A stretch of 64,000 nt of DNA, from positions 22,464 through 86,463 of the forward strand of contig JAHFGV010000001.1 in NCBI GenBank assembly GCA_023247255.1. The letters are read 5' to 3'. The DNA comes from Candidatus Omnitrophota bacterium (GTDB lineage: Bacteria; Omnitrophota; Gorgyraeia; Aquiviventales; Aquiviventaceae). Shown piece by piece: positions 31,888-54,524 of this stretch (positions are counted from its first letter, which is position 1; the number at the start of each line of letters is the position of its first letter). The position numbers and the translations under genes are program-made. The notes beneath the pieces are model-generated. The model searched no databases. It had not been told where the DNA came from and saw only the letters and a program-made list of their open reading frames with translations.

Positions 31888-33086
31888 CCCCCCAGATGCT
31901 CCGCCATCGTCTGCGCGTCCTTGTCGCCGCGTCCAGACAGACCAAGGATGACGACCGTCCGGCGCTTGAGTCGTGGGGCAAGATTCTCCAGATAGGCGAT
32001 GGCATGCGCCGGCTCAAGGGCTGGCAGGATGCCCTCGGTTCGGGCGAGTAGCCGGCAAGCTTCCAGGGCCTTGCGGTCAGTGACAGCGACATACTGGGCG
32101 CGGCGCGTGAGTTTGTAATAAGCATGCTCAGGGCCCACACCGGGATAATCCAACCCGGCAGCGATTGAGGCGGTAGGAAGCACCTGGCCGTAACGATCCT
32201 GAAGGAGCAGGCTGTAGGATCCGTGGAGAACCCCGGGACGACCCTTGAGTAAGGTCGCTGCATGATGTCCGGGGCTGAGTCGGTTTCCTCCAGCCTCGAC
32301 CCCGATACAGCGCACCGAACGATCATTGGCGAAGGCATGGAACAGCCCGATCGCATTGGAGCCGCCCCCCACACAGGCGATTAAAAGATCAGGCAGACGG
32401 CCGGTTTCTTGAAGAATCTGCCGACGAGCTTCCTGGCCAATGACGGATTGGAAATCTCGGACAAGCAGGGGATAAGGATGAGGCCCGACGACCGATCCGA
32501 TGCAGTAATGGCTGGTTCGGACCGTGGTGACCCAATTACGAATGGCTTCGTTGCAGGCATCTTTCAAGGTTCTTGTTCCCGTACGAACCGGGCTGACACG
32601 CGCCCCTAACAGGCGCATCCGAACCACATTCAGGTTTTGCCGCTCGATGTCATCCTCTCCCATAAACACTTCACAGCTGAGTCCAAAGAGGGCTGCCGCG
32701 GTTGCGGTGGCGACTCCGTGTTGGCCGGCTCCTGTTTCCGCGATCAGGCGCTTTTTGCCCATCCGCACAGCTAGAAGCGCCTGCCCGAGGGCATTGTTGA
32801 TCTTGTGAGCTCCCGTATGAAGCAAGTCTTCTCGTTTTAAATAGACGCAGAGCCCGCCGAACTGCTTTCCGAGGCGCTTGGCATCATAAAGCGGCGTCGG
32901 GCGTCCCGCGTAGTTCTGGAGCAGTCGATGGAACTCTCGGCGAAACTCAGGATCTTGACGGGCCTTGGCGTAGGCGCGCTCCAGTTCAGAGAGCGCCCCC
33001 ATGACCGTTTCTGGAACGAATTTACCCCCGAACGGACCAAAGTGTCCTGTCGAATCAGGTAGTGTTTGTCGTCGAGACATAGGCAA
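31884..33086 (-). CDS. trpB: Tryptophan synthase beta chain
   Basis: [23 protein letters not shown] lysine. Confidence 0.95.
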
Positions 33087-41656: not shown

Positions 41657-42490
41657 CTATGTTCCCTGTCTCACGTCCCATATCCCATTAAATAGCTCTT
41701 TCACTTTTACTTTAACGTCAGCAGCGCTCATCAAGGCCTCTCCGATTAAGAGTGCGTGGACACCGAGTCTGTGCATGCGCTGAACATCTGTTGCCGTTTG
41801 AATACCGCTTTCAGCCACCACCGTCGTCCCCGATGGAATGCTCGGGATGAGCCGTTCCGAGAGGCGAGTATCGAGGGTAAACGTCGTCAGATCCCGATGG
41901 TTGATACCGATAATCTTGGCATCCACTCTCACGGCTCTTTTAAGTTCTTCGTCGTTGTGAATCTCAACCAAAGCATCGAGCCCTAACTCTCTGGCGAGCG
42001 CTAGATATTCCGATAACTGCCCATCACTTAAAGCACGCACGATCAAGAGAACCGCATCCGCTTGATAGAATAAAGACTCATAAAGCTGATAAGCATCGAT
42101 GATGAAGTCCTTGCGCAAAACCGGAATCTCGGTGAACTGCTTAACGTCCCTTAAGAAATCCAGATGCCCGCCAAAGAAAGGCTCATCCGTCAGAACAGAC
42201 AAGGCGGATGAGCCTGCTTCCTCGAGGCTCTGAGCGAGGCTAACAGGATCGAATCTCTCCCGAAGCATTCCTTTCGATGGTGATTTGCGCTTCAGCTCCG
42301 CAATCAAGCAGAGTCTTCCCGGCTGGTAGATTGCCTGCCGAAAATCGCGCTCCCGAGCATGCCCCCCCACCCGTTCTTTGAGTTCTTCAAGAGATACCCT
42401 TTCCTTCACGCGTGCGATCTCTTGTCTTTTCCTTTCCAGAATCTTCTCAAGCATTGTCAATCGTTCGAACACCTTTGCGTCTTCTCCCAA
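41657..42490 (-). CDS. trpC: Indole-3-glycerol phosphate synthase
   Basis: IAELKRKSPSKG, LLIVRALSD, TIM-barrel IGPS motifs. Confidence 0.92.
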   Translation of the reverse strand: MGEDAKVFERLTMLEKILERKRQEIARVKERVSLEELKERVGGHARERDFRQAIYQPGRLCLIAELKRKSPSKGMLRERFDPVSLAQSLEEAGSSALSVLTDEPFFGGHLDFLRDVKQFTEIPVLRKDFIIDAYQLYESLFYQADAVLLIVRALSDGQLSEYLALARELGLDALVEIHNDEELKRAVRVDAKIIGINHRDLTTFTLDTRLSERLIPSIPSGTTVVAESGIQTATDVQRMHRLGVHALLIGEALMSAADVKVKVKELFNGIWDVRQGT

Positions 42491-42679
42491 TTTTTGTAGA
42501 CCCCCTTAGCTTTCTCAAACCCCGCTCATTCATCTCTCATCCGTAAGTAGCGAGGAAGACTCTCTTTCTCATCATCCTGTTATCGCTTATATAGTTACAG
42601 AGACTTTCGCGTCTCGCGTTTTCATAACCTATGGCTCAAAACGTCCCGTTCGTTCATCGGCTCGGTTATTCCTGGCCGT

Positions 42680-43597
42680 TCACACTTTGGCTGTTGGCCT
42701 CACTCGTAGAGTGTCACACCTCTTCAGAAGTTCTGGATTTACCTGACCCCCGAACTTCTCAAAAAAGCTTTCGAGATGAGGCATCGCTGACCACGCTCCA
42801 TATACTTGGTCATTCTCAAGTACGATTTGGGCAATCTCGTTCGCTTCCTCCGGCGTGAAAGTAGCGAACTCCAGCAAAGCTTTTGAGCTGGCACCTGCCT
42901 GATCATACGTATGACTCGCTTTTAAAGATCGGGTGGTACACTTCTTGATAGCGCCTTTCAGTTCAGGGTACTCAGACGCTATGCCGGAAAGCAATTCAAC
43001 ACACGTAGAATGAAAAGTGACTGGATGAGTTCCTCGCAAGGAAACCGCCTGACTTACTTCCATGAAACCATATGGGTCGACATCCACTTTGATGGGAGCT
43101 ATGACCATGCCCCGTCCGACAGCTATACCAGCTTCTTGGTCTGTCCATTCTGACTCATGAAAGCGTTTTGTTAGGATCGGGATGAAAATGTTACAAACGA
43201 CTGTCAGGTGACGCAGTATCACCTTTTGCCAAGCTGCCGAGGGGCGGATATCCTCGTGTGCCACAAATGCGCTGGCACCGAACCGCTCAAAGACGCTCTT
43301 TAGTTCTTTCGCAACTTCAACATCATCATGTTTATGGCTCAAGAAAACATGGATTCTATCATAAGACAACCGTCCAACTACAGGAGGTTGGACAGCTTCT
43401 CGTTCTTCAAATCTTTCAAGTTGGTCGACTCGTTTTTCCATCGCTTTATACCAAGCGTGACGGCTATCTCCGGGTGAAATCTCGCTCAACGCAGCTGTGA
43501 TATCTGTCCTGGTATATGCCTCAATTAATCCCTTGTCTCCTGTTTGGAGGAACTTATGGAAGGCAGCTATTATAGCCAGAGTTTTGTCACTAGCCAT
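42680..43597 (-). CDS. TIR-domain protein (80-aa helical N-terminus, TIR core, ~95-aa C-terminal domain)
   Basis: IHVFLSHKHDD...AFVAHEDIRPSAAWQKVI...IFIPILTKRFHESEWTDQEAGIA matches bacterial TIR (SxxxD ... SxW..E). Confidence 0.75.
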   Translation of the reverse strand: MASDKTLAIIAAFHKFLQTGDKGLIEAYTRTDITAALSEISPGDSRHAWYKAMEKRVDQLERFEEREAVQPPVVGRLSYDRIHVFLSHKHDDVEVAKELKSVFERFGASAFVAHEDIRPSAAWQKVILRHLTVVCNIFIPILTKRFHESEWTDQEAGIAVGRGMVIAPIKVDVDPYGFMEVSQAVSLRGTHPVTFHSTCVELLSGIASEYPELKGAIKKCTTRSLKASHTYDQAGASSKALLEFATFTPEEANEIAQIVLENDQVYGAWSAMPHLESFFEKFGGQVNPELLKRCDTLRVRPTAKV

Positions 43598-43633
43598 TGG
43601 GCAACTCCATTCCTGGAAGTAAACCCTACTACT

Positions 43634-44122
43634 TTACTTCCACACGATACCCCACTTATCAAGGAAGGGTTTAAGATCTTCTCCGCGTTTATTGATATTC
43701 AAGTGCCGCTTCGTATTTGTTGAATCGTGTCGTCTGCCCCCACGACCAGGAGTTTTCACCCAACGATCGTGGTCCTCTCGTAGCCACGTATCCACTTGAG
43801 CTGTTGGTACGATGTAGAATTGGAGATTTTTCGTCTTTTCGGTCAGGTTAACGAGAATCGTGAAGTCCGCTGTCTTACCGATGTCCCGGAATATTGTGCC
43901 ATCCTGCTTAACCACCCATTGCCAGTCATCGTACTCCTCGGATTTGGTCTTGACTCGAACCCGTACCATCTGCGTTCCCTTGCTAGCAAGAATATCAACG
44001 GACGGCGTGTTTCGCGGCGCAAGGGCGGCCACGATTCCCCTTTTCAGGAGTTCTGCGACAACGTAATGCTCACCAGAATTTCCGATGAGCGAACCCTGCC
44101 CCGCTTTAATTCTGCCTTCCAT
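43634..44122 (-). CDS. Small PD-(D/E)xK nuclease-fold protein (YraN/Hjc-like core)
   Basis: GNSGEHYVVAELLKRGIVAAL...SVDILAS...VRVRVKTKS = GxxGE...D...VxVK pattern. Confidence 0.6.
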   Translation of the reverse strand: MEGRIKAGQGSLIGNSGEHYVVAELLKRGIVAALAPRNTPSVDILASKGTQMVRVRVKTKSEEYDDWQWVVKQDGTIFRDIGKTADFTILVNLTEKTKNLQFYIVPTAQVDTWLREDHDRWVKTPGRGGRRHDSTNTKRHLNINKRGEDLKPFLDKWGIVWK

Positions 44123-44156
44123 CCTGAGATTTCACCCCCTGAATTTGATAACCTAC

Positions 44157-44228
44157 TTACTTATAACCGTTTAGCTTCTTGAGAATTTCCAGCGCCATCC
44201 CTAGTAACTTACACATACGGTCAGCCAT
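44157..44228 (-). CDS. 23-aa mini-ORF, paralog of 47560-47643
   Basis: MADRMCKLLGMALEILKKLNGYK; differences from its paralog are concentrated at synonymous third positions. Confidence 0.4.
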   Translation of the reverse strand: MADRMCKLLGMALEILKKLNGYK

Positions 44229-44487
44229 AAGTAATGACCGCGAGACGCTTCTTCATCTCAGAAATGCCTGTCCCTCGGTGCCTGGCACCTTTCAGGGCGG
44301 CATCTGTCTTACCGCCATTTACCGTCCTCTTTTCTGCTTCCATTCCAACCGCTTTCGTCATCCTAGTTTTTTAACCTTTCGCTGCTCGCATGCTCGGGCT
44401 TGAAGGCCTATGGTTTGCCGTTTCTTCTTTTCGAATTAGTCCTGCTTTAATAACCTCGTATCAGGCAATGAGTTCTGTTGTTGAATG

Positions 44488-45519
44488 TTATTTCTTTGGC
44501 GTGACCGAACCTAGTAATCGCCCAATTGCTTCTGTCGGAAGCTTCTGTGCACCAAGCGTATCTTCATCGTGTGGAAGCAAGCCGGAACTACCAAAAGCCA
44601 CCACTGCTTCCACCAAGTTTGCAAGAATTAAGTCACGCTGTTCAGGAGTTTGTGCTGATACCACGAATGCCTCGATGCTATTTGCAACTCTCTGCCGATG
44701 TTTATTGAGTTGGCTCATGTGGATATGTGCCCTCAACATCCTCATAGTAAAGGTAGTAATTGCCCCAACGGCAGATAAGATTACAATTCTAAGAGCCGTC
44801 TGATAGACGGCGATGTGCCATTCAGATTCTACTGGTAGCTTGATAAAGATAAATGCGATGGCCACTCCGAAGAAAGCGATGATTGCGAACGCACTCAACC
44901 AACCCCATAGCTTTATGTCTCTCGATAGTTCAATCTGAGCTTCCTTGAATTGCCGCTGTGCTTCTTGAACAGAGATTTTAGTCGCTGTCCGTCTTGCTTT
45001 CGTCTCAATTTCCTCGGCAAGTTTCTTGGCTTCGTCTATAGCTTTCCTTGCTTCTTCCTTAAGGGATTGGATAGTTTCTGATGATTCCTTTCTGAGTGAC
45101 TCGACTGTACGCTGGTATTCTTGTCTAATACCTTCATCTTCTAGGAAACCACGCTCTATGACCGCTGCGGCAACGAACGATGGCTCTGTTCGCTTAGCTT
45201 CCTCTAAGAATGTATCAATGTCGGTCAGAAAACTTGTCCTTCGCGCGATATATTGCGAGCTAGCAGAGCCAGCCTGATTCGAGAATTGGCTGTGAATTTG
45301 CTGAAGAACGTTCGTGATCTGATTAATCGGCTCATTGTGAACCTGTGGAGCGTATTGGATTGCTAATCGGCGCAATTTAGAGAGACGCTCCAACCGCGGC
45401 TGAAGCTCCTTTTCGAGAGACTCTTCACCGAGGGATTTCCTAAGAAGCTTTTCCATGTCAACCGAATTTACAGCATCGTCGGCTTTCTTCAAATTATCAA
45501 GGTATTGCTGAGATGCCAT
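44488..45519 (-). CDS. Coiled-coil protein with two adjacent TM helices (candidate membrane effector)
   Basis: ~220 aa charged helical N-terminus, TM1 LWGWLSAFAIIAFFGVAIAFIFI, TM2 IAVYQTALRIVILSAVGAITTF, ~75 aa C-terminus. Confidence 0.6.
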   Translation of the reverse strand: MASQQYLDNLKKADDAVNSVDMEKLLRKSLGEESLEKELQPRLERLSKLRRLAIQYAPQVHNEPINQITNVLQQIHSQFSNQAGSASSQYIARRTSFLTDIDTFLEEAKRTEPSFVAAAVIERGFLEDEGIRQEYQRTVESLRKESSETIQSLKEEARKAIDEAKKLAEEIETKARRTATKISVQEAQRQFKEAQIELSRDIKLWGWLSAFAIIAFFGVAIAFIFIKLPVESEWHIAVYQTALRIVILSAVGAITTFTMRMLRAHIHMSQLNKHRQRVANSIEAFVVSAQTPEQRDLILANLVEAVVAFGSSGLLPHDEDTLGAQKLPTEAIGRLLGSVTPKK

Positions 45520-45585
45520 TTTCTACCTCCTACACGACAACATTACTGTTGCCCTTATACATATTCCCAGTCTCCACCCCACACC

Positions 45586-45918
45586 TTAAGCATTACTTGC
45601 CTCAAAACCCATGACCTTCTCGTCGTCTTTTATCTCAGTACACGGTACCACAATTGAAGCAATAAAACCCCACTTCACCAAAGCAATAGAATCAAACTCT
45701 GTTTCCTGGGGCGGTCTTCCATCTGAGAAGACGATGTGTCTTTTTATTTTTGGGATGTAAACCCAAACACCAAGATCATCGACGCCTCTAATTTGCAAAT
45801 ACTGATTTTGCAAAACAATTCCCTGTTGATCCAAACCCAATTCCTGTGGCAGTTTTACGAGACACACGATAACATTCTTGTTGAGTAAGTCCTTGCCTAT
45901 AAACCCTATTTCAGGCAT
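45586..45918 (-). CDS. Hypothetical protein (110 aa)
   Basis: ORF-track ORF in AT-rich island, no recognisable motif. Confidence 0.45.
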   Translation of the reverse strand: MPEIGFIGKDLLNKNVIVCLVKLPQELGLDQQGIVLQNQYLQIRGVDDLGVWVYIPKIKRHIVFSDGRPPQETEFDSIALVKWGFIASIVVPCTEIKDDEKVMGFEASNA

Positions 45919-45928
45919 GATGGCTCCG

Positions 45929-46135
45929 TTACTTATTTGTTCTCGTTTTTACAAATTCCTCAAGATCCTCGGGCGCAATGCGCCATCTCTTTATCTTAGT
46001 CGCACGAATCTGCTTCAGATTGATGAGCTCACGCACTCTCTCCTCAGTGAGGTCCAGCTTCTCAGCGACCTTCGCCACCGTCAGGTAATTTTTGACATCC
46101 ATAACGCGATCCTCGTTCTCAGTTCTTCGGGACAT
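45929..46135 (-). CDS. Excisionase/AlpA-like HTH DNA-binding protein
   Basis: YLTVAKVAEKLDLTEERVRELINLKQIRATKIKRWRI (HTH_17 / Xis-type). Confidence 0.7.
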   Translation of the reverse strand: MSRRTENEDRVMDVKNYLTVAKVAEKLDLTEERVRELINLKQIRATKIKRWRIAPEDLEEFVKTRTNK

Positions 46136-47420
46136 TAAACACCATGACTGTAAGAATCAATTCTCTGCTGGCATCGCTCGGTTGGTGAAACATGTACTGG
46201 AAGGAAGTCTCATGCTGTTTGACGAGTTCTCTCTTGAAGCACGAATGAGTCTTCACTATCTCGGGGACTTGCGACAAGACGGCAGAGAAATCCTGATTCT
46301 TATTAAACAGAATTACTGCAATCTTCGTATCCCGCCAGCTTGCATATCTCAAGACCTGGTCTATCGCTTCGCTCAAGCTCTTTTGTCCGTGCCAAATTTT
46401 GCATTCCGCGATGAAGACATTTTTGCCTTCATAACGGATCAAAATATCGGTCTTCCCTGAATAGTTGAAGGCTTCACCCGTCGCCAATTCGTAATGGCTG
46501 TTGAGAGGAACCAAGAACTGCCATCTGAGGGATTCCTCGTCCATCTCACGAAACGCTTTGGGGCTTCGCTCCATAACAAGTGCCATCCGGGAGATCAAAT
46601 CCAGAATGTGCCTATACTCCCCTTCTTGGAGGATCGGCTCTCTCGTTACACTACCTTCCTGAATCTTCGGGGGTTCAATCAGAGGTTTTCGCCGAACCAC
46701 AGGAACGGTGTAAGTAGCCGCATCCTGTTCTCTTCGCTTTATAGGGATTCCGAGACCCTCCACTAAGCCTTCGTCCTTCAATATCCTTTCTTTTCTCGCA
46801 ACCAAAAGTCGCCTTGCCTCACCCTCTATGAACTTGTTGTGTTCTGCGGCATCGCGGGCCATAGTCTGTAAGTAGCCCTTGATCTGACCGATATCCTGCT
46901 CCATATCCGTCTTTATTTTGTCCGTGCTCATATCCTGGGGCAGACCCCGATACCGCAAATGTATCTCATTCCCCACCACGTTACCGCGGATCCCGCTTAA
47001 AGAAAAAGAGGACGGGGTGAAATGGAATAATTGTCCATCGCCTTCAAATGGGACAGCTATGGTGACGGAAATACCCTTTACAATATGCGGTTCGTCATCA
47101 TCGATGATCGCGTAATCAACACGCCCCCTCACATCCATGTCAATGTCTTCGGCGGGATGGGCAACCTTGTTGTCATCATGCAATACTGGTGTTTCTAAGG
47201 TATATCTGCCGACCAGATACTTGCACAGTTCTTCTTCGCTAGTTTTCAGCAAGTATTCACGACCCATACGCTGAACCTCGTCTTTCAAGCCTGCTTTGAG
47301 AGACTCCAACAAATTCCGAAACTCTCCCTTTTGGTGGAACAGTAATTCGTTACCTGCCATCTCACTTCGTACCCTTTGGCGTTTATAAAACTGTCCGTGC
47401 CTGCGCATATTCATTTCCAC
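46119..47420 (-). CDS. 433-aa protein with C-terminal PD-(D/E)xK nuclease motif
   Basis: GKTDILIRYEGKNVFIAECKIWHG (D...ExK) near the C-terminus; N-terminal two-thirds unrecognised. Confidence 0.6.
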   Translation of the reverse strand: MEMNMRRHGQFYKRQRVRSEMAGNELLFHQKGEFRNLLESLKAGLKDEVQRMGREYLLKTSEEELCKYLVGRYTLETPVLHDDNKVAHPAEDIDMDVRGRVDYAIIDDDEPHIVKGISVTIAVPFEGDGQLFHFTPSSFSLSGIRGNVVGNEIHLRYRGLPQDMSTDKIKTDMEQDIGQIKGYLQTMARDAAEHNKFIEGEARRLLVARKERILKDEGLVEGLGIPIKRREQDAATYTVPVVRRKPLIEPPKIQEGSVTREPILQEGEYRHILDLISRMALVMERSPKAFREMDEESLRWQFLVPLNSHYELATGEAFNYSGKTDILIRYEGKNVFIAECKIWHGQKSLSEAIDQVLRYASWRDTKIAVILFNKNQDFSAVLSQVPEIVKTHSCFKRELVKQHETSFQYMFHQPSDASRELILTVMVFNVPKN

Positions 47421-47559
47421 ACGATTCCATATTGCTCCATATTCTACTGCCAGCCGAAAGACAAGTCACCTGAAAGCTTGTCAACAGAAGGACAGAATTG
47501 CGTGCGGAAAAAGGCGTGCTCGAAAGAGGGCAATTCACGACGGATTTTTCGTAACCAAC

Positions 47560-47643
47560 TCACTCATAACCGTTCAGCTTCTTCAGCAGCCCCAGCGCCA
47601 TCTCGCGCCAACGGCACATACGGTCAGCCGTAGGTTTGGACAT
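47560..47643 (-). CDS. 27-aa mini-ORF, paralog of 44157-44228
   Basis: MSKPTADRMCRWREMALGLLKKLNGYE. Confidence 0.4.
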   Translation of the reverse strand: MSKPTADRMCRWREMALGLLKKLNGYE

Positions 47644-47651
47644 ATACCGAC

Positions 47652-48053
47652 CTATGCATTTTTGCCTTCCTGGGGAAGCTGTCGGAACACGGCTGCAAGC
47701 TCAGCTTTGCTTATCTTACCCGACGCCACCTTCAACATGGCGTCCTTAAGGTCTCCCGCCGGATCGGTAAGACTGACATCGTTCAGTTCCAGAAAGACCA
47801 ACGCGCAGGCTAACGCCGTCCGCTTGTTGCCATCGACGAACGGGTGATTCTGACAAAGATGATACGCATAGGCAGCGGCCATCTCATAGACGTCCTGGTG
47901 GAGCCATTCACCAGCGAACGAAGCCTCAGGCTGCGCAAGCGCTGATTGGAGCAGGCCCATGTCACGCAATCCGGCCTGGCCTCCGTAGCGTCTGAGTTGG
48001 TCGGCGTGTACTTCAACAACCTCGGCCAGCGTCAGGAATTGCGGCTCGCCCAC
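47652..48053 (-). CDS. doc: Doc (Fic-family) toxin; GTG start assumed
   Basis: HPFVDGNKRTALACALVFL Fic motif; GTG at 48051-48053 sits 8 nt after the antitoxin stop, GGAG upstream. Confidence 0.8.
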   Translation of the reverse strand: MGEPQFLTLAEVVEVHADQLRRYGGQAGLRDMGLLQSALAQPEASFAGEWLHQDVYEMAAAYAYHLCQNHPFVDGNKRTALACALVFLELNDVSLTDPAGDLKDAMLKVASGKISKAELAAVFRQLPQEGKNA

Positions 48054-48060
48054 GGCCAGC

Positions 48061-48288
48061 TTACTCCGCCAATTCCTTGAGCGTCTTGCCGTGGCGCCGA
48101 TTGACGGCCTCCAGGGCAGAACGGAAACGCCGTTCCTGCGTGGCATCCCTCAGGGGCGAAATGATAAGATTTCGGCCATCGGTGGACAACTCAAGCGGAG
48201 TTTTCGTGGTAATGTGGAGCAGTTCCAGCACAGCCTTATCGATGACCAGTGCTGTGCTGTTACCATGTTGCGTCAGATGTTTCACCAT
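48061..48288 (-). CDS. AbrB/MazE-fold antitoxin
   Basis: MVKHLTQHGNSTALVIDKAVLELLHITTKTPLELSTDGRNLIISP looped-hinge helix. Confidence 0.8.
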   Translation of the reverse strand: MVKHLTQHGNSTALVIDKAVLELLHITTKTPLELSTDGRNLIISPLRDATQERRFRSALEAVNRRHGKTLKELAE

Positions 48289-48545
48289 CTGAACCCCCTG
48301 TTTGACTGGTTATACAGTGTACTTACAATGTATCACCTCCATTGCGGCTCGTCAAGTGTCGCCACCTCAGCAGCGGCCAGCACCAGCCGAAATCCTTCCG
48401 CCAGGGCGTGAAACACCTGGCTGGTGTCGTGGATGGTGTCCGGCTCCGGTGCTTCAGAAAGTCCAGGTATTTTCGCACTATGGTCATCCATACGTCTAGA
48501 GGTAGAATTGTTTGGTCATCTTAAAAAATAGAACCGCCACCTCAT

Positions 48546-48770
48546 TTACCGGCAGCCACGGTCAGCATTCCAGGTTTTCCCATTCCGGCAGGAGCAGACG
48601 ACATCCTTTCCCTCGATGCGCTCGGGACGGGAGCAGGCTTCCGCAAAGGCGGTTTCGCAGTTGAGAAAAACCCCTCCGGTTAACTCGCACAGGGATTTAA
48701 ACCTCGCGAGATCGCTCTTCGCCTGACACCCTGCGAATGCAAAAAGCACGATTATGAGGATTCTGAACAC
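48546..48770 (-). CDS. Small Cys-rich lipoprotein (74 aa)
   Basis: Signal peptide plus lipobox FAFAGC, six further Cys. Confidence 0.5.
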   Translation of the reverse strand: MFRILIIVLFAFAGCQAKSDLARFKSLCELTGGVFLNCETAFAEACSRPERIEGKDVVCSCRNGKTWNADRGCR

Positions 48771-48962
48771 TGATCTTCCCGTAAACTAAGTAGACGTATT
48801 ACGGTTCTAGTGTATTCATAATAGGTTACGAGTTAATTCCGGTAAAAGCTCTGCGCTTTCACAGTGAGCTTGTTCAAAGACTCCGCAACGCTCTTAAGCA
48901 GTTCCTTCAAGTTTTTGGTCCTCATAGCGTAGCCCCTTTTACATATGTCGCTATGTGTTGCA

Positions 48963-49955
48963 TTATGGGCTGACACAAAGGCTGCGCACGCGATCGAGGA
49001 GTTGTCTTGCCTTTCCACTCTCGATTGTCTGACGTGCGGACTCCATGCCCTCTTGGATCGTCGCTGCGCGATTGGAAACGTAGATCACACAGCCGGCATT
49101 GACTACGACGATGTCGCGGGCTGGTCCTTCCTTGCCATCCAGAATGTCGCGGGCAATCGCGGCGTTTCTTTCCACAGAACCTCCCTGGATGGCTGGTAGC
49201 AAAACACGTGGAATATCAAAGGCTCGGGTATCGAGCGTGGCGCGCGTGATACGACCGTCTCGGACCTCCAGGGTATCTGTGAGTGCTGTGGTGCTGATCT
49301 CATCCAAACCATCGCGACCATGGACAACCATTCCATGCTGAACACCCAGTCGGCTGATGGCTTCTGCCATCGGCTGCAATAACCGCTCGTCGGAGACTCC
49401 CACCAATTGAAATGCCAGCGCTGCCGGATTCGCCAATGGGCCGATGAGATTGAATAGAGTGCGTATTCCCAGTTCCTTTCGGATACCTGCGACGCCTTTC
49501 ATCGCCGGATGAAAAATCGGGGCAAAACAGAACCCGAATCCCAACGTTTCCACACAGTGGGCCACCTGCTTGGGTGAAGCCGATAGATTAACGCCCATGG
49601 CCTCCAAAACATCGGCACTGCCGCAGCGGCTGGATGCTGCGCGGTTTCCGTGTTTGACGATTCGTACGCCGCTAGCGGCGGCCACCAGCGCAGCAAGTGT
49701 GGAAACGTTCACGGTTTGTTGTTTGTCTCCACCCGTGCCGCAGGTATCACAGAGATTCTGCGTATTTGTCAAGGGCAGGCGCACTGCATGGGCTCGCAGG
49801 ACTTCAACCGCAACAGCTATCTCCTGTGACGTTTCTCCCCGTTTTGCCAGCGTTTGGAGGAAAATCCGCGTGGATTCGGCAGGGTAGCTGCCAGTCATGA
49901 TCTGGGTCATGACCTGGCGCATCGCTTCGGCGGGTAAGGGCTGCTCGAAGTCCAT
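48963..49955 (-). CDS. trpD: Anthranilate phosphoribosyltransferase
   Basis: CDTCGTGGDKQQTVNVSTLAALVAAASG. Confidence 0.95.
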   Translation of the reverse strand: MDFEQPLPAEAMRQVMTQIMTGSYPAESTRIFLQTLAKRGETSQEIAVAVEVLRAHAVRLPLTNTQNLCDTCGTGGDKQQTVNVSTLAALVAAASGVRIVKHGNRAASSRCGSADVLEAMGVNLSASPKQVAHCVETLGFGFCFAPIFHPAMKGVAGIRKELGIRTLFNLIGPLANPAALAFQLVGVSDERLLQPMAEAISRLGVQHGMVVHGRDGLDEISTTALTDTLEVRDGRITRATLDTRAFDIPRVLLPAIQGGSVERNAAIARDILDGKEGPARDIVVVNAGCVIYVSNRAATIQEGMESARQTIESGKARQLLDRVRSLCVSP

Positions 49956-49956
49956 C

Positions 49957-50556
49957 CTATCGATGAGAAGGCCGGCGTTTGTGAAAGTCCCTCACCAGGC
50001 GTAGGAAATTCCGCAACAGATCCTTGCCCTGTGTGGTGAGGATGGACTCCGGGTGAAACTGCACGCCATATACAGGCAGATGGCGATGTTGGAGTCCCAT
50101 GATTTCGCGCTGAATCGTCCAGGCCGTAACGCGGAGTGTCTTGGGTAGAGTCTCTCGACGCACGATCAACGAATGATAGCGGGTGGCTTCAAAAGGATTG
50201 GGAAGTTTTCGGAACAGTCCGGTCCGTATGTGATAGATTGCGGAAGTCTTACCGTGCATGGGCCGTCTGGCACGGACCACGTGGCCTCCGAAGACCTCGC
50301 CGATGCATTGGTGGCCCAGGCATACGCCAAGAATAGGGGTGGATGCTGCGAAGGTTTTGATGAGGTCATTAGATATCCCAGCATCGGAAGGGTTGCCTGG
50401 CCCAGGAGAGATGACAATGCTCGACGGTTTGAGTCGCCGGATGCCCTTTAAGGTGATTTGATCGTTGCGCTTGACCACCAGTTCCTCACCCAATTCTCCC
50501 AAGTATTGGACGAGGTTGTAAGTGAACGAGTCGTAATTGTCGATCATGAGGATCAT
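49957..50556 (-). CDS. trpG: Anthranilate synthase component II (glutamine amidotransferase)
   Basis: [12 protein letters not shown] catalytic Cys. Confidence 0.95.
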
Positions 50557-50574: not shown

Positions 50575-50690
50575 ATTTGCGCGTTGGCGCGAGTGTGCAT
50601 GTTAACGTTTCTACCTGTGCAATGGGACAGCTTGAAGCTTGTTAACTCGCGCACTCGCAAACCCACTAACGCGCTAACTCGCCAACACGC
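50575..50690 (-). promoter_or_regulatory. Structured trpE-trpG intergenic element (long imperfect inverted repeat)
   Basis: gcgcgttggcgcgagtgtgcatgttaac ... gttaactcgcgcactcgc ... ctcgccaacacgc. Confidence 0.35.
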
Positions 50691-52186
50691 TAACCCTTTC
50701 GTCGTTCCGCCAACTCAATGGCTTGGAGCATGCCTTTGGCCTTGTTGATCGTCTCTTGATATTCCCGATCGGGTTGGGAATCCGCGACGATACCGGCACC
50801 TGCTTGAATATAAGCGTGACGATCTTTAACCAGGATGGTGCGGATCGTGATGCACGCATCGAGGTTTCCGGAGAAGCTGAAATAGCCGACGGCTCCGGCG
50901 TAAATGCCCCGATCTTGCCGCTCCAACTGGGCAATAATTTCCATAGCCCTGACTTTAGGAGCACCGGTGACGGTTCCTGCCGGGAACGTGGCACGCAAGG
51001 CGTCGAAAGCTGTTTTTCCTGAACGCAGCTTACCTGTCACCCCGCTGACTAGATGCAGAACATGCGAGTATTTCTCAACGATCATCAGCTCCGGGGTGCG
51101 AACCGATCCTACCTGGGCCACTCGACCCAGATCGTTGCGTCCCAAATCCACGAGCATGAGATGTTCGGCGCGTTCCTTGGGACTTGTGCGCAACTGATGA
51201 ATCAGGCGCTCATCCTCACGTTCACTCTTACCCCTGGGTCGAGTGCCGGCAATGGGCCGGGTTTCCAGAAGACCTTCTTCGCAGCGGATGAGCATTTCCG
51301 GAGAAGATCCGACCAGAGACAGGTTTCCTAGACGTAAAAAGAACATATAGGGAGACGGATTGAGCGATCGCAGGGAACGGTAAACTTTCAAGGGTTCGCA
51401 ATCCAAGCGTCTCTCAAAACGTTGAGAAAGAACGACCTGGATGATCTCACCTGAGCGGATCGCTTGCTTGGCCTGGTGGACCATGCTCACAAACTCTTCA
51501 CGACTCATGCTGGACTGAAAGGGCTTCGAGACAGAGGGAATACTTTGTTTTCTCCGGGTATCTGGAAGGCTTCGGGAAAGTTTCCGGGCCATGGCGTGTA
51601 TGGTTTCAACCGCCTTTCGGTAGGCAAGCCGCGGCGCATGCGTCTGGGTTTGGGCGTTGGCCACCAACAATAGCTTATGTTGGGCATGGTCGAAAATGGC
51701 CATTGTCTGGGTCAGCATCAGCATGATGTCCGGCAGGCGCAAGTCATTTTCTCGATGGGTAGGCAGACGTTCCAAGAATCGCACGACGTTATATCCGAGA
51801 TAGCCGACCCATCCTCCGCAAAACCGCGGCAGTCCCTCAACAGGCACAAAACGAATGGGTGCCGTCAGGCGTTCGATTTCCTTGAGGGGATCCGGCACAT
51901 TTTCAAAACGCCGCGTTTGGCGAGTGCCCTGCCCGAATGTTGTGAGATCGACGTTTCTGCCGCTGCTGGTGAAAAGCATCTGCGGGCTGCTACCCAGGAA
52001 TGAAAAACGCGCGACTTTTTCTGTTCCCTCTACCGATTCGAGCAGATAGCTGAGCCGGCCGTCGTCCAGTTTCATAAACGCGCTCACAGGCGTTTCCAAA
52101 TCAGCCAGCATCGTCCCGTAGACAGGAATAACATTTCCCTGTTTTGCTAAACGGATGAACTCAACTTCTGATGGTTGAATCTTCAT
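50690..52186 (-). CDS. trpE: Anthranilate synthase component I
   Basis: LSYLLESVEG N-terminus, chorismate-binding C-terminus GAVGYFSFSG. Confidence 0.95.
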   Translation of the reverse strand: MKIQPSEVEFIRLAKQGNVIPVYGTMLADLETPVSAFMKLDDGRLSYLLESVEGTEKVARFSFLGSSPQMLFTSSGRNVDLTTFGQGTRQTRRFENVPDPLKEIERLTAPIRFVPVEGLPRFCGGWVGYLGYNVVRFLERLPTHRENDLRLPDIMLMLTQTMAIFDHAQHKLLLVANAQTQTHAPRLAYRKAVETIHAMARKLSRSLPDTRRKQSIPSVSKPFQSSMSREEFVSMVHQAKQAIRSGEIIQVVLSQRFERRLDCEPLKVYRSLRSLNPSPYMFFLRLGNLSLVGSSPEMLIRCEEGLLETRPIAGTRPRGKSEREDERLIHQLRTSPKERAEHLMLVDLGRNDLGRVAQVGSVRTPELMIVEKYSHVLHLVSGVTGKLRSGKTAFDALRATFPAGTVTGAPKVRAMEIIAQLERQDRGIYAGAVGYFSFSGNLDACITIRTILVKDRHAYIQAGAGIVADSQPDREYQETINKAKGMLQAIELAERRKG

Positions 52187-52192
52187 AACAGG

Positions 52193-52837
52193 TCACAGGT
52201 TCTTTGAATTAAACGGAAACCATGTTTGTAAAAGTGTGCGGAGGCGCACAAACGATTCATCCTGGCACCGATCCAAACTGACCCTTTCGGCAAGCTGTCG
52301 ATACAGAGAAGATGAGCGTGGAATACTGACTTGTTTCAATGCTGTTTCAAGGGCCCTCCGTGGTTCTTGAGGTTTTCTGTCAGACCCTTTCCATAATTCC
52401 TGATGTTGTAGCCAATTTCGTAATGTGGGTGTTCTGCCTTTCCATCCTAAGACGGCATCTACCTCGCTTGAATCACTCCATACCCACACTTCCAATTCAG
52501 GGTTGATAACGAGCACTTCCGCACGCTCATCCCACCCATTATTAGCGAGCCTAGCTTTTAGATTAGCTTCGATTTCCTGGACACCCGAAGTTTCTTGGCC
52601 ACAGCCTTTAGCATCAAATACCACCAGTGCTCGCTTAGCCTTTTTAAAGTAGAAACGCAATACCTCAGGGGCTTCCTTAAAGCATCCAGGGTCTCGGTGG
52701 AAATTTACTAGAATCTCGTATCGAATGGACCGAATACCCAGGCTTCTTTGACGTGTGGAGATGAGTCCTTCGAAAACTTCTCGTTCATCAGTTCCTGGAA
52801 CAAGCAAGATAAGATCGAGCGGAGATTCAGCATTCAT
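52193..52837 (-). CDS. DUF4276-like (TOPRIM-like) protein, partner of the upstream ABC/AAA_21 ATPase
   Basis: N-terminal LILLVPGTDEREVFEGLI resembles the DUF4276/TOPRIM start (VEGxTE); 4-nt overlap with the ATPase stop. Confidence 0.55.
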   Translation of the reverse strand: MNAESPLDLILLVPGTDEREVFEGLISTRQRSLGIRSIRYEILVNFHRDPGCFKEAPEVLRFYFKKAKRALVVFDAKGCGQETSGVQEIEANLKARLANNGWDERAEVLVINPELEVWVWSDSSEVDAVLGWKGRTPTLRNWLQHQELWKGSDRKPQEPRRALETALKQVSIPRSSSLYRQLAERVSLDRCQDESFVRLRTLLQTWFPFNSKNL

Positions 52838-54093
52838 CCGAGAACGCCTGTTGCAAATAGCGTCCCAAGATCAATGCCTCTTCGCCAATCTCGTAACATC
52901 GGATGTTCGCTTCCACGGACGATATCCGTAGCACCTCCGCTGCTACGAGCGAAACAAAGAATTTGCTCAGGCTCAGCAAGGGAGAGGATCACGGGTGAGT
53001 GGCTGGCGCACAGAATTTGGTTCTCATAAGTCGATGAGAGTGACTGGAATACTGCTTCAACGGCTCTGGGATGAATGCCATTCTCAGGTTCCTCAATGAG
53101 ATAAATGTGCCCTGCTTGATTGAGATAGGCCAACAGGGTGAGAGCGAGCAGTCGCAGTGTCCCATCGGATATCATCCAAGATGGCGCACTCAGTCCCGAC
53201 TGATAGGATAGGCGAAGATAGCGATGTTTGTCCTCTGGCCGTTCTACCGTATCGACCGTGTTCAAATCCGTAAGTGCCGTGCGCACGTGTCCAATCCAGC
53301 GTTCAAAACGTTCTGGGGATTTCCGTAGCTCCTCGATTACTAACGGTAGATTGGATCCATCAGGCTGAAATTCTTGAGGGCTTCCAGGAGGAGTAGGACG
53401 TCGCATCGCCTGGCTATTGAGAGTCAGACTCTGGATGCCTTCTATAAGTAGATGTTTAACCCAGATAGCCACAGGGAAACGATTTTCGTCCTCAGGCAAG
53501 TTAGCGAGCGCTGAGCGCTGGGGTCCCAATCTAAAGGGGTTGTTCCAATCTGTCGTTTCGGAAAAGAAGTAATCGTTACCGGACTCAGATTTTTTTGTCA
53601 CAACTTTTTTCCATCCTGAAGGGGTATGTTTTCCTTCGGGAAGGACAACAGGTGTGGTTATCACCTGAAGGGATGGAAAAAGTTCACGTTGGTTCTCTTT
53701 CTTTTCTTCCTCTTTAGGAGCAGGTTTTAACCAGAGCGTTTCGCTAAGGATGGAAAGCACATTCTTAACATCTAAACCTATAGCCATTTCATACCGTGCG
53801 CGTTCATACCCATTGCGTGGAAGTTGCCGCCGTCGTTCTTCAGGAATCTCCATTTCAACAGCGATTTCAAATTCTTTATTCTGTCCCATCCAGATCAGAT
53901 CTGACAGGTTGGGTGAGCGAGAATGGACCGCTTCCATGAGTCCATCTTTAAGCACATCACCGAGTAGACGGATGACATCCAGAAAAGTCGATTTTCCACT
54001 GGCATTGGGTCCTACAAGAACATGGAAGCTCTCCATTTGCTGGCGTACACGGTGTAAACAGCGATATCCCTCCACGTCAATCAGTCGGATCAT
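52834..54093 (-). CDS. AAA_21 / ABC-type ATPase (OLD/Gabija-GajA/AbiL-like), start at [10 protein letters not shown]
   Basis: Walker A VGPNASGKSTFLD, Walker B/D-loop IYLIEEPENGIHP, CASHSP; ATGA overlap with the hisI stop (tcat at 54090-54093). Confidence 0.8.
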   Translation of the reverse strand: MIRLIDVEGYRCLHRVRQQMESFHVLVGPNASGKSTFLDVIRLLGDVLKDGLMEAVHSRSPNLSDLIWMGQNKEFEIAVEMEIPEERRRQLPRNGYERARYEMAIGLDVKNVLSILSETLWLKPAPKEEEKKENQRELFPSLQVITTPVVLPEGKHTPSGWKKVVTKKSESGNDYFFSETTDWNNPFRLGPQRSALANLPEDENRFPVAIWVKHLLIEGIQSLTLNSQAMRRPTPPGSPQEFQPDGSNLPLVIEELRKSPERFERWIGHVRTALTDLNTVDTVERPEDKHRYLRLSYQSGLSAPSWMISDGTLRLLALTLLAYLNQAGHIYLIEEPENGIHPRAVEAVFQSLSSTYENQILCASHSPVILSLAEPEQILCFARSSGGATDIVRGSEHPMLRDWRRGIDLGTLFATGVLG

Positions 54094-54524
54094 TTTGAAA
54101 CTCCTTTGTACACTTTCTTTGGATCGAAAACCTTTCGACTCTGGACTTGTAATCTTCCTAAATGGGAGAGAATCCGAAAATAGCAACTGAAGTATCCGGC
54201 GTGGCAGGCGGCGACGCGCTGGCGGACGAAAAACACAAGGGATTTGCCTTCACAGTCAACGGCTATACTTTGGATGAACTGAATGTGTCCAGAGGTCTCT
54301 CCTTTACGCATGAGTGTCTGTTGGGAGCGTCGGAAAAGATAAACGGTTCCTGTCTGTAGGCTCTTACGCAAAGCTTCACGGTTGAGGTAGCACAGGGTCA
54401 GAACTTGCTTGCTCTTGGCATCTTGGATGATTGTTGGAATCAGTTCCTCATCGGAGAACTTCAAAACCGAAACGAGTTGGCGGAAACCGGCTAAGGCTTT
54501 GCCGCGCTGAAGGTTTGTCTTCAT
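54090..54524 (-). CDS. hisI: Phosphoribosyl-AMP cyclohydrolase
   Basis: [23 protein letters not shown]...[11 protein letters not shown]. Confidence 0.9.

What the first reader, a model, noticed from the sequence alone, without database searches (positions are those of the whole stretch)
42491..48962. AT-richer 6.4-kb island splitting trpD from trpC: candidate multi-gene anti-phage defence locus
trpE-trpG-trpD (52186 to 48963) and trpC (42490 to 41657) should be adjacent, but about 6.4 kb of visibly lower-GC DNA lies between them. It encodes a TIR-domain protein, two PD-(D/E)xK nuclease-like proteins each preceded by a paralogous 23-27 aa mini-ORF, a coiled-coil 2-TM membrane protein, an Xis-type HTH protein, an unknown 110-aa protein and a Doc/AbrB toxin-antitoxin pair. 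No integrase, ATPase or helicase is present, so it does not match the named TIR systems I can recall (Thoeris ThsA/ThsB, CBASS, SPARTA, Avs). TIR signalling enzyme plus nuclease and membrane effector candidates plus HTH regulator plus an addiction module is the classic make-up of a defence island and could be an undescribed system.
Basis: partly seen in the sequence, partly recalled or inferred. Interest (0 to 1): 0.9.

Follow-up and report, generated by a model that had tools for sequence, protein, structure and literature searches.

The report
Cassette-built defence island splitting trp operon
The 6.4-kb insert between trpD and trpC is a real, foreign patchwork of independent anti-phage and addiction genes rather than one new TIR system, and its pieces are joined by a repeated 45-base junction element that may mark a new way of assembling gene cassettes.

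Summary

The genes are not one system:
- The 413-aa nuclease is the known PADLOC candidate PDC-S54 (E 3e-140). It travels only with its HTH_17 partner.
- The 2-TM protein and the TIR protein also occur alone in unrelated contexts.
- Doc/AbrB is an ordinary toxin-antitoxin pair.

It consists of an 11-12-codon micro-ORF ending TYG*, overlapping a 20-bp pseudo-palindrome (ACCTAYG-GCTGAC-CRTAKGT). The element divides the island into three co-oriented cassettes.

Two contigs from a related population carry four more copies, some flanking non-defence genes. One of these contigs joins the island's last cassette to its first exactly at the core. Assembly breaks in two other samples also fall at the elements.

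Best reading: a mosaic defence island built by recombination at a lineage-specific junction site. No recombinase was found.

The parts
48546..48770 (-). 74-aa Cys-rich ORF with a lipoprotein-like signal (MFRILIIVLFAFAGC). It lies between trpD and the first junction element; whether it belongs to the island is uncertain.
   Evidence: ORF list. No family hit. GC of 48289-48962 is 0.503.
48476..48519 (-). Junction element J1. Micro-ORF1 is MTKQFYL*TYG* (interrupted by a stop). The 20-bp site is ACGTATG-GATGAC-CATAGTG.
   Evidence: Found by an nhmmer profile that was not trained on it (E 4.4e-3). 14-nt motif hit.
48333..48491 (-). 52-aa ORF (MDDHSAKIPGL...) whose start codon lies inside the J1 site. 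It occupies the ORF2 position of cassette 1.
   Evidence: Called as a gene in public assemblies. Its first 33 nt are 28/33 identical to the end of the related contig L094. No family hit.
48061..48288 (-). AbrB/MazE-type antitoxin (75 aa), the presumed partner of Doc.
   Evidence: Pfam MazE_antitoxin 7.5e-4, below the cut-off. NCBIfam doc_partner 5.3e-4, below the cut-off. It ends 7 nt before the Doc start.
47652..48053 (-). Doc (Fic-fold) toxin, 133 aa.
   Evidence: Pfam Fic 4.9e-21. NCBIfam TIGR01550, 65.6 bits against a cut-off of 38.65.
47560..47659 (-). Junction element A. Micro-ORF1 is MHRSVYVQTYG* (47659-47624, overlapping the Doc stop). The site ACCTACG-GCTGAC-CGTATGT is at 47635-47616.
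   Evidence: (E 3.5e-4, not in the training set). The start of Logan contig L186 falls at 47621.
46119..47360 (-). PDC-S54 protein (413 aa): an N-terminal alpha/beta domain, a long helix, and a C-terminal PD-(D/E)xK nuclease domain.
45929..46102 (-). HTH_17 / excisionase-family DNA-binding protein (57 aa). It is inherited together with PDC-S54 in the closest relatives.
   Evidence: Pfam HTH_17 4.7e-11. TIGR01764 scores 28.8 bits, exactly at its cut-off. It is 84% identical to the gene after PDC-S54 in L085. The shared DNA block is 47402-45931.
45586..45918 (-). 110-aa protein of unknown function.
   Evidence: No hit in Pfam, PADLOC, NCBIfam or PHROGs. Lowest GC in the island, 0.408. The exact sequence was found only in contigs of the same population.
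44488..45519 (-). 343-aa protein with a long helical N-terminal part and two TM helices; member of a conserved uncharacterised family.
   Evidence: 273 homologues, 45-81% identical and about 342 aa long. Weak PADLOC LeoBC hit, 8e-6. Homologues occur alone next to a XamI R-M system inside a nuo operon, and between tldD and pmbA. The DNA block shared with L095 is 45530-44489.
44157..44361 (-). Junction element B. Micro-ORF1 is MKKRLAVITYG* (44256-44221; it forms the end of a 46-aa ORF that starts at 44361). The site ACTTATG-GCTGAC-CGTATGT is at 44232-44213.
   Evidence: Logan contigs from two runs end at 44262/44264 and start at 44219.
43634..44122 (-). 162-aa I-Ssp6803I-like PD-(D/E)xK endonuclease.
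42680..43597 (-). 305-aa TIR_2 protein: an 80-aa helical N-terminus, a TIR domain, and a C-terminal helical domain with an ENDQV motif.
   Evidence: Pfam TIR_2 1.4e-11. Invariant F85, S87, S149, W151, E155 in 37 homologues. Weak ThsB and ThcB4 hits, far below cut-offs.
42529..42673 (-). 3' segment of cassette 3 plus junction element J4. Micro-ORF1 is MMRKRVFLATYG* (42575-42537). Only a half site is present, ACTTACG-GATGAG-..., 38 nt before the trpC TTG start.
   Evidence: 87% identical over 137 nt to L094 1871-2007, with homology ending at the core. nhmmer E 7.2e-7.

Best explanation
The insert is a mosaic defence and addiction island made of three co-oriented cassettes placed between trpD and trpC:
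- C1 (48481-47622): 52-aa ORF, AbrB-type antitoxin, Doc toxin.
- C2 (47621-44220): PDC-S54 nuclease with its HTH_17 partner, a 110-aa unknown protein, and a 343-aa 2-TM protein.
- C3 (44219-42537): an I-Ssp6803I-like PD-(D/E)xK endonuclease and a TIR-domain protein.

Each cassette boundary carries the same junction element of about 45 nt. It consists of a translated 11-12-codon micro-ORF (consensus M-x-[RK]-[KRS]-[VL]-[FYA]-[LVI]-x-T-[YW]-G-stop). The stop of this micro-ORF overlaps an ATG inside a 20-bp pseudo-palindrome, ACCTAYG-GCTGAC-CRTAKGT.

Shown:
- the gene identities;
- the independence of the components in other genomes;
- the four element copies in the island and four more on two contigs from a related population;
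- a chimeric joint in one of those contigs that switches partner within the core.

Inferred:
- Cassettes are gained, lost and reordered by recombination at the GCTGAC core, by a factor encoded elsewhere.
- Each module then acts on its own. Doc/AbrB stabilises the island. PDC-S54 is a self-contained sensor-nuclease. The TIR protein consumes or converts NAD+ through E155. The small nuclease cuts DNA. The 2-TM protein acts at the membrane.
For: Island reality and mosaic composition.

Independence of the components:
- The PDC-S54+HTH_17 block (window 47402-45931 only) recurs in front of unrelated R-M and DISARM-like genes. A 47%-identical homologue lacks the HTH gene.
- None of 80 loci with 162-aa homologues holds a homologue of any other island protein. 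None of 46 downstream neighbours is a TIR, and there is no recurrent partner.
- TM343 homologues stand alone in other operon-splitting inserts.
- TIR homologues have other neighbours.

Junction element:
- The 14-nt motif occurs 3 times in the island, once in L094, and nowhere in about 1.9 Mb of other loci.
- An nhmmer profile finds only the 4 island copies, 3 in L200 and 1 in L094. It finds none in the other 58 kb of the window.
- ORF1 differences by codon position are 37/30/86.
- L200 copies flank a Na+/H+ exchanger and a GSDH-like gene as well as PDC-S54.

Recombination at the core:
- L094 is homologous to J4-left for 137 nt (87%). After TATGGCTGACC it continues with J1-right (18/22 identical beyond the core).
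- Six of the eight Logan contig ends inside the island lie at the elements (48504, 47621, 44262, 44264, 44219 twice), and the B element itself is missing from the contigs on either side of it in both runs.
Against: - No recombinase was found in the island. None was found in the 64-kb window either, but that test was weak.
- Only eight element copies are known, from three contigs in two populations.
- The element has a coding signature and promoter-like flanks. It could therefore be a shared regulatory leader, with the chimeric joint produced by ordinary homologous recombination.
- The assembly breaks could reflect a second exact copy elsewhere in the genome rather than population variation.
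- The 162-aa gene and the TIR gene are adjacent in the only close relative too, so a functional pairing in this lineage is not excluded.
- No empty trpD-trpC site from a close relative could be obtained.
- No defence function was tested for any gene.
Confidence: 0.6

Rival explanations
1. The junction elements are only shared regulatory leaders, with no dedicated recombination role. Each would be a promoter plus a translated upstream micro-ORF that gates expression of toxic cargo. On this view the island grew by ordinary horizontal transfer into a hotspot, and occasional homologous recombination between the similar leaders produced the chimeric joint.
For: - ORF1 shows third-codon-position variation typical of translated sequence.
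- The elements always lie 5' of the cargo genes and in the same orientation, 16-272 nt from the next start.
- The left flanks share A/T-rich TATAAG-like stretches.
- No recombinase is nearby.
Against: - The switch of partner in L094 lies within the 11-nt core, not somewhere in a longer homologous stretch.
- Contig ends in two assemblies fall at core positions 10-12.
- The site is a 7-6-7 pseudo-palindrome, which coding alone does not explain.
- J1 and A keep the site although J1's ORF1 carries a stop.
Confidence: 0.22
2. One reading: TIR protein, two nucleases, membrane protein and HTH regulator form one integrated, undescribed multi-gene defence system, in which a TIR signal activates nuclease or membrane effectors.
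For: - All genes are co-oriented and tightly spaced.
- The TIR has a conserved putative catalytic Glu.
- The 162-aa gene and the TIR gene are adjacent in the window and apparently in L094.
- No ThsA-type effector is present, so another effector would be needed if the TIR signals.
Against: - No co-occurrence outside this lineage. None of 80 loci with 162-aa homologues carries a TIR or any other island gene.
- PDC-S54, TM343 and TIR homologues all sit in unrelated contexts.
- Homology blocks end at single genes or pairs.
- GC differs per module.
- Junction elements separate the proposed partners into different cassettes.
Confidence: 0.08
3. The island is a degenerate integron cassette array (a CALIN, a cluster of attC sites lacking an integrase) whose attC sites have decayed.
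For: - Homologues of the 162-aa gene are often preceded by an integron-type boundary. 18 of 64 loci have GTTRRRY within 50 nt upstream of the start, against 3.5% expected. L156 and L119 have RYYYAAC...GTTRRRY hairpins.
- Integron cassettes are known to carry defence and TA genes (bioRxiv 10.1101/2024.07.02.601719).
- The layout, co-oriented cassettes with a repeat at each boundary, is the same.
Against: - A scan for RYYYAAC...GTTRRRY pairs finds none in the island's intergenic regions.
- The junction regions do not fold better than shuffles (z -0.35 and +0.44).
- The core is GCTGAC, not G|TT.
- The element has a coding signature.
- No IntI was found.
Confidence: 0.04
4. The 162-aa I-Ssp6803I-like enzyme is a free-standing homing endonuclease that cuts the 20-bp pseudo-palindrome. 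Break repair then copies or reshuffles the neighbouring cassettes.
For: - The best structural match is a homing endonuclease that recognises a 23-bp pseudo-palindrome as a tetramer (PMC3384342).
- The gene lies 91 nt downstream of site B.
- The family is solitary and found in very varied contexts.
Against: - The 80 homologue loci lack the site.
- Intact sites coexist with the gene in the same genome.
- L200 has three sites but no such gene on the contig.
- Position 56 is Arg here, where distant homologues have Gln.
Confidence: 0.06

Closest known systems
Defence islands / variable hotspots between conserved core genes
   Same: A low-GC, mosaic cluster of anti-phage candidates plus a toxin-antitoxin pair lies between conserved housekeeping genes. 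Its content differs in a related population: L094 has an extra Hypoth_Ymh gene and a different cassette order.
   Different: The island sits inside a biosynthetic gene string (trpD|trpC). It has no integrase or tRNA. It is partitioned by a repeated junction element not described for such hotspots, to my knowledge.
Integron cassette arrays and CALINs, including phage-resistance cassettes (BRiCs; bioRxiv 10.1101/2024.07.02.601719)
   Same: Co-oriented cassettes with a conserved site at every boundary. The cargo is defence, TA and miscellaneous genes. Cassette order differs between relatives. One cargo family (the 162-aa nuclease) is preceded by an integron-type boundary in many other loci.
   Different: There are no RYYYAAC/GTTRRRY boxes, no stable attC hairpin and no IntI. 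The core is a 7-6-7 pseudo-palindrome around GCTGAC embedded in a translated micro-ORF. The cassettes hold several genes (up to 3.4 kb).
PADLOC phage-defence candidate PDC-S54
   Same: The 413-aa protein matches the family model end to end (E 3e-140) and has the family's invariant PD-(D/E)xK residues.
   Different: PDC-S54 is catalogued as a single gene with no tested function, and no paper in the searched library mentions it. Here and in the closest relatives it is followed by a co-inherited HTH_17 gene.
Thoeris (ThsA + ThsB TIR)
   Same: A stand-alone bacterial TIR protein with weak ThsB-model similarity and a conserved W-x3-E.
   Different: No ThsA-type effector (SIR2, Macro or SLOG) lies in the island. 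Scores are far below family cut-offs (ThcB4 33.8 bits against 220). The protein has its own conserved C-terminal helical domain.
I-Ssp6803I PD-(D/E)xK homing endonuclease (PDB 2OST) and small type II REases / Hjc
   Different: Only 14% identity. The gene is not intron-encoded. It has a conserved C-terminal extension (W..TPG..G..H). Its target and role are unknown.
Phd/Doc-type toxin-antitoxin modules
   Same: A Doc/Fic toxin above the curated cut-off is preceded by a small AbrB/MazE-fold antitoxin gene.
   Different: The antitoxin scores below the family cut-offs. The pair is preceded by a 52-aa ORF that starts in a junction site.

Membership tests
PADLOC PDC-S54 | Full-length match to the family HMM PDLC05036 | tested here: met
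   E 3e-140, 466 bits, residues 21-432 of the 433-aa ORF against model positions 1-408 of 410.
PADLOC PDC-S54 | Demonstrated anti-phage activity | not testable with these tools
   The family is only a candidate. No paper in the library mentions PDC-S54.
Thoeris | ThsB-type TIR protein | tested here: inconclusive
   Pfam TIR_2 1.4e-11 is above its cut-off. PADLOC ThsB models reach only 3.3e-6. NCBIfam ThcB4 scores 33.8 bits against a cut-off of 220.
Thoeris | Adjacent ThsA effector (SIR2/Macro/TM with SLOG) | tested here: not met
   No such domain was found in any island protein by Pfam, PADLOC or NCBIfam.
Integron / CALIN | Two or more attC sites (RYYYAAC ... GTTRRRY imperfect hairpins) at the cassette 3' ends | tested here: not met
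   A pattern-plus-folding scan of 41-55 kb on both strands gave no candidate in intergenic regions. The junction regions fold no better than shuffles. IntegronFinder's covariance model was not available.
Integron / CALIN | IntI tyrosine recombinase (for a complete integron) | tested here: not met
   None in the island. phmmer with a Phage_integrase query and a box-II motif scan found nothing in the window; this is a weak test.
Phd/Doc toxin-antitoxin | Doc (Fic-fold) toxin | tested here: met
   TIGR01550 scores 65.6 bits against a cut-off of 38.65; Pfam Fic 4.9e-21.
Phd/Doc toxin-antitoxin | Small antitoxin gene immediately upstream | tested here: inconclusive
   The 75-aa ORF ends 7 nt before Doc. 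MazE_antitoxin scores 19.8 bits (cut-off 24.7) and doc_partner 20.3 bits (cut-off 55.9).
PD-(D/E)xK nucleases, I-Ssp6803I-like (Pfam PDDEXK_5) | Restriction-endonuclease-like fold with conserved acidic and Lys catalytic residues | tested here: met
PD-(D/E)xK nucleases, I-Ssp6803I-like (Pfam PDDEXK_5) | Homing activity (site-specific cleavage of an empty allele) | not testable with these tools
   This needs biochemistry. The context data show only that the gene is solitary and mobile.
HEC-01 / MADS MAD3-MAD4 (neighbouring insert at 52193-54186, not part of the finding) | MAD4 protein plus AAA_15/21 ATPase | tested here: met
   NF047734 scores 212.8 bits against a cut-off of 160. HEC-01A 3e-44 and mad3 9e-37.

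The most novel reading that the evidence does not exclude
The junction element is the recombination site of a previously undescribed cassette system that follows integron-like logic. Multi-gene cassettes carrying defence, addiction, transporter and other cargo would be excised, inserted and reordered at a 7-6-7 core (ACCTAYG-GCTGAC-CRTAKGT). The core is embedded in a translated 11-12-codon micro-ORF, and the recombinase, not yet identified, would act in trans. The micro-ORF and the overlapping start codon would at the same time provide translation initiation for whatever cassette lands downstream.
Probability: 0.25. Interest if true: 0.85.

Novelty: new variant of a known kind. Interest (0 to 1): 0.55.

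Why it matters
As a defence island the locus is ordinary, and one of its genes is already a catalogued candidate. Two points make it worth keeping.

First, the case is a reminder that gene clustering in a defence island does not establish a single system. Here every component can be shown to travel alone.

Second, the repeated micro-ORF and pseudo-palindrome junction offers a concrete, testable lead on how integrase-less defence islands are assembled inside conserved gene strings in uncultured bacteria. If it is a true recombination site, it would be a second kind of cassette-capture system besides integrons. It would also give a sequence tag for mining further cargo genes in this lineage.

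Tried and rejected
- **Empty-site comparison.** A genome-contig scan with TrpD returned only relatives of 47% identity or less, so no trpD-trpC junction from a close relative was available. Exact-protein look-ups gave only contigs of the same population.
- **Mini-ORFs as conserved partners of the nucleases.** Rejected. blastn, tblastn and nhmmer found no copy in six PDC-S54 loci or in 80 loci of the 162-aa family.
- **Known RNA family in the island.** Rfam at E <= 1 gave only one chance-level hit. The repeat does not fold better than shuffles.
- **Canonical attC sites.** None found.
- **Pattern scans of viral contigs.** Scans for the mini-ORF and for ORF1 plus core gave 0 hits.
- **Sequence searches of the PDB.** Profiles of the 162-aa and PDC-S54 families gave nothing significant. 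The TIR profile gave only a weak TIRAP hit.
- **Family scans of the small ORFs.** Pfam scans of the mini-ORFs and the 46-, 52- and 74-aa ORFs, and PHROGs scans of the 52- and 74-aa ORFs, gave nothing.
- **110-aa protein against the 112-aa gene next to a TM343 homologue.** Unrelated.
- **A 162-aa gene near a PDC-S54 homologue in L196.** Unrelated, a coincidence of length.
- **Recombinase search in the window.** Nothing found, but the test was weak.
- **Alignments A1 and A2.** They were too diverse for the search for related loci; A3 worked.
- **Taxonomy.** The taxon of the source organism could not be established.

Full report
**1. Observation**

All genes from 39.3 to 63.7 kb lie on the minus strand. 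trpE, trpG and trpD (50690-52186, 49957-50556, 48963-49955) and trpC (41657-42490) are confirmed by Pfam domains, and 6.47 kb lies between trpD and trpC.

The insert has GC 0.485. One-kb windows elsewhere average 0.539 (sd 0.023). Windows within 42491-47651 average 0.470, lower than 99% of the outside windows. The insert is not uniform: AbrB-Doc 0.570, the 110-aa gene 0.408, TM343 0.460, the 162-aa gene 0.503, TIR 0.476.

trpD and trpC are 30-130 nt apart in nine distant genomes. In this genome, however, trpB/trpA lie another 8.6 kb beyond trpC, so the trp genes are already dispersed. A second foreign pair, the MAD4 protein and an AAA ATPase of the HEC-01/MADS type, sits between hisI and trpE.

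**2. What each gene is**

- **TIR protein (305 aa).** Pfam TIR_2 1.4e-11. In 37 homologues the motifs FLSH, FVAHEDI.P and S.WTDQE are invariant or nearly so. E155 lies four residues after W151. From my own knowledge, this is the spacing of the catalytic Glu in enzymatic TIR domains such as SARM1. Similarity to ThsB or ThcB4 models is far below their cut-offs.
- **57-aa protein.** An HTH_17 / excisionase-family protein.
- **343-aa protein.** It has a long helical N-terminal part and two hydrophobic helices, and belongs to a conserved uncharacterised family. Its only defence-related hit is a weak one to LeoBC.
- **110-aa protein.** No hit in any library.
- **Doc.** Above the curated cut-off. The AbrB/MazE-like gene in front of it is below its cut-offs but correctly placed.

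**3. One system or several?**

The contexts of homologues argue for several.

- PDC-S54 homologues of 79% and 71% identity are followed by the same HTH_17 gene (84% identical). The genes beyond that pair are unrelated: Vsr/Dcm/HATPase/N6_Mtase in one case, GmrSD plus large helicases in the other. DNA homology with the window runs only from 47402 to 45931, that is the gene pair plus 42 nt. A 47%-identical homologue has no HTH partner.
- The closest TM343 homologue (79% identity) sits with a XamI R-M system between nuoF and nuoG. Another lies between tldD and pmbA. Neither has a relative of the 110-aa gene, and the shared DNA is the gene alone.
- For the 162-aa family I fetched 80 metagenome loci at 50-64% identity. 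None contains a homologue of any other island protein. The nearest neighbours are heterogeneous, none of 46 downstream neighbours is a TIR, and no neighbour family recurs.
- In 18 of 64 unique loci of that family, an integron R' core (GTTRRRY) lies within 50 nt upstream of the start, against 3.5% expected. L156 and L119 show attC-like hairpins. This family therefore often travels as an integron cassette.
- TIR homologues have still other neighbours.

The only recurrent adjacency is 162-aa/TIR in contig L094 (83% identical TIR). L094 comes from a close relative and is not independent evidence.

**4. The mini-ORFs are part of a junction element**

The 89-nt repeat is absent upstream of PDC-S54 and 162-aa homologues elsewhere. 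Comparing the window with L094 gave the lead.

L094 matches the TIR gene. It then carries an extra 917-nt Hypoth_Ymh insert, and then matches the 137 nt that precede trpC in the window (87% identity). At the sequence TATGGCTGACC it switches to a stretch homologous to the start of the 52-aa ORF at the other end of the island, with 18 of 22 bases identical beyond the core.

The same core occurs at four places in the island, each at a module boundary:
- 48492 (J1)
- 47632 (A)
- 44229 (B)
- 42545 (J4, a degenerate half site)

A second contig from the related population (L200; MAG GCA_964374105.1) has three more copies:
- upstream of its PDC-S54 gene;
- between a 249-aa gene and a Na+/H+ exchanger;
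- between that exchanger and a GSDH-like gene.

An nhmmer profile built from six copies recovers the two island copies left out of training (E 3.5e-4 and 4.4e-3). It finds nothing in the other 58 kb of the window or in about 1.9 Mb of unrelated loci.

**5. Anatomy of the element**

- **ORF1.** A micro-ORF of 11-12 codons in the four window copies: MTKQFYL*TYG*, MHRSVYVQTYG*, MKKRLAVITYG* and MMRKRVFLATYG*. The related contigs have MMRKSVFLVTYG*, ...KKKVFVETYG*, ...TKKVFLETYG* and ...KKVFIQTWG*. Pairwise differences fall 37/30/86 on codon positions 1/2/3, which is a coding signature.
- **Overlap and site.** The TGA stop of ORF1 overlaps an ATG (TATGGCTGA). Both lie in a 20-bp pseudo-palindrome that can be written as 7-bp arms around a 6-bp centre, ACCTAYG-GCTGAC-CRTAKGT. 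Arm symmetry is 6/7 in A, and 5/7 in B, L094 and L200a.
- **ORF2.** Its substitutions show no codon-position bias (22/29/26). In J1 and L094 it is replaced by a 52-aa ORF.

**6. Evidence that the element is a crossover point**

- The L094 joint combines J4-left with J1-right and switches within the core. This is the junction expected from a circle excised by J1 x J4 recombination, or from a different cassette order in the relative.
- In two Logan assemblies of the window's own population, the contigs are 100% identical to the window but end or start at 48504, 47621, 44262, 44264 and 44219 (twice). Six of the eight contig ends inside the island are therefore at the elements, which occupy under 3% of it. 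The B element itself is missing from the contigs on either side of it in both runs.
- This pattern fits a sequence that occurs in more than one context in those samples. It does not prove that.

**7. Most likely explanation**

The insert is a mosaic of three co-oriented cassettes, C1 (AbrB-Doc), C2 (PDC-S54-HTH_17-110aa-TM343) and C3 (nuclease-TIR). They were assembled at a lineage-specific junction site, and each module functions independently.

Shown:
- the identities of the genes;
- their independence from one another;
- the distribution of the element;
- the chimeric joint.

Inferred:
- site-specific recombination at GCTGAC by a factor encoded elsewhere;
- the individual defence mechanisms: a nuclease activated on infection for PDC-S54, NAD+ consumption or signalling by the TIR through E155, DNA cleavage by the small nuclease, a membrane effect of TM343, and stabilisation of the island by Doc.

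The rivals are given separately: a pure regulatory leader, a single multi-gene system, a degenerate integron, and homing by the small nuclease.

**8. Comparison with known systems**

The locus works like a defence island and, in layout, like an integron cassette array. Such arrays are now known to carry phage-resistance cassettes (bioRxiv 10.1101/2024.07.02.601719). It fails the integron membership tests, having no attC and no IntI. It is not Thoeris, because no ThsA is present. It does contain a true member of PDC-S54 and a true Doc toxin. The neighbouring HEC-01-type pair belongs to a candidate type reported as protective in one preprint.

**9. Verdict**

The claim of an undescribed integrated TIR system is not supported. 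The defence-island reading is supported. The new element of interest is the junction micro-ORF and pseudo-palindrome, for which the evidence is suggestive but thin: eight copies, three contigs, no recombinase.

Noticed in passing
window 52193-54186 (-): A MAD4 protein (NF047734, 212.8 bits against a cut-off of 160) and an AAA_15/21 ATPase (PADLOC HEC-01A 3e-44, mad3 9e-37) are inserted between hisI and trpE. GC is 0.476. No junction element is present. HEC-01 was reported as protective in bioRxiv 10.1101/2024.09.26.614923.
   Followed up: partly
alignment A7 (homologues of window 42680-43597): Many 330-360-aa members of this TIR family end in D-[DE]-[IVL]-P-F. From my own knowledge, this is the same motif as the C-terminal tip of bacterial SSB. 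The window protein lacks this tail.
   Followed up: no
L095-L100 (gene at 7001-8032 of L095); L101-L103: Homologues of the 343-aa membrane protein also occur in operon-splitting inserts. One lies with a XamI restriction-modification pair between nuoF and nuoG. Another lies with a 112-aa gene between tldD and pmbA.
   Followed up: partly
L104-L183, e.g. L156 2482-2605 and L119 2254-2310: Many loci of the 162-aa I-Ssp6803I-like nuclease family show an integron-type cassette boundary. GTTRRRY lies within 50 nt upstream of the start in 18 of 64 loci (3.5% expected), and attC-like hairpins flank the gene in L156.
   Followed up: partly
L094 954-1870: The related contig carries an extra Hypoth_Ymh (Abi-like) gene inserted between the TIR stop and the 137-nt segment that precedes the junction core. 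The window represents the empty state for this insertion. An AGG triplet is found at both edges.
   Followed up: partly
window 48546-48770 (-): A 74-aa Cys-rich ORF with a lipoprotein-type signal (MFRILIIVLFAFAGC) lies between trpD and the first junction element. It has no family hit.
   Followed up: no
L085-L090: The PDC-S54 + HTH_17 pair sits at the head of larger defence clusters: Vsr/Dcm/HATPase/N6_Mtase in one case, and GmrSD plus DEAD/MZB/DUF559 and SNF2 helicases in the other. In L200 an HTH_17-like ORF lies upstream of the junction element and PDC-S54 instead.
   Followed up: partly
window 47874-48014 (inside Doc): In assembly ERZ27280021 the two contigs that cover the island break inside the Doc gene, with a 141-nt (k-mer length) overlap. 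This suggests a second Doc-like context in that sample.
   Followed up: no
window 31060-33086 (-): trpB (PALP, 400 aa) and trpA (Trp_syntA, 1.3e-83) lie 8.6 kb downstream of trpC. Unrelated genes (HDAC, EndoIII, LemA, DUF2207, RadC, YchF, OCD) lie in between, so the trp genes of this organism are dispersed in several places.
   Followed up: partly
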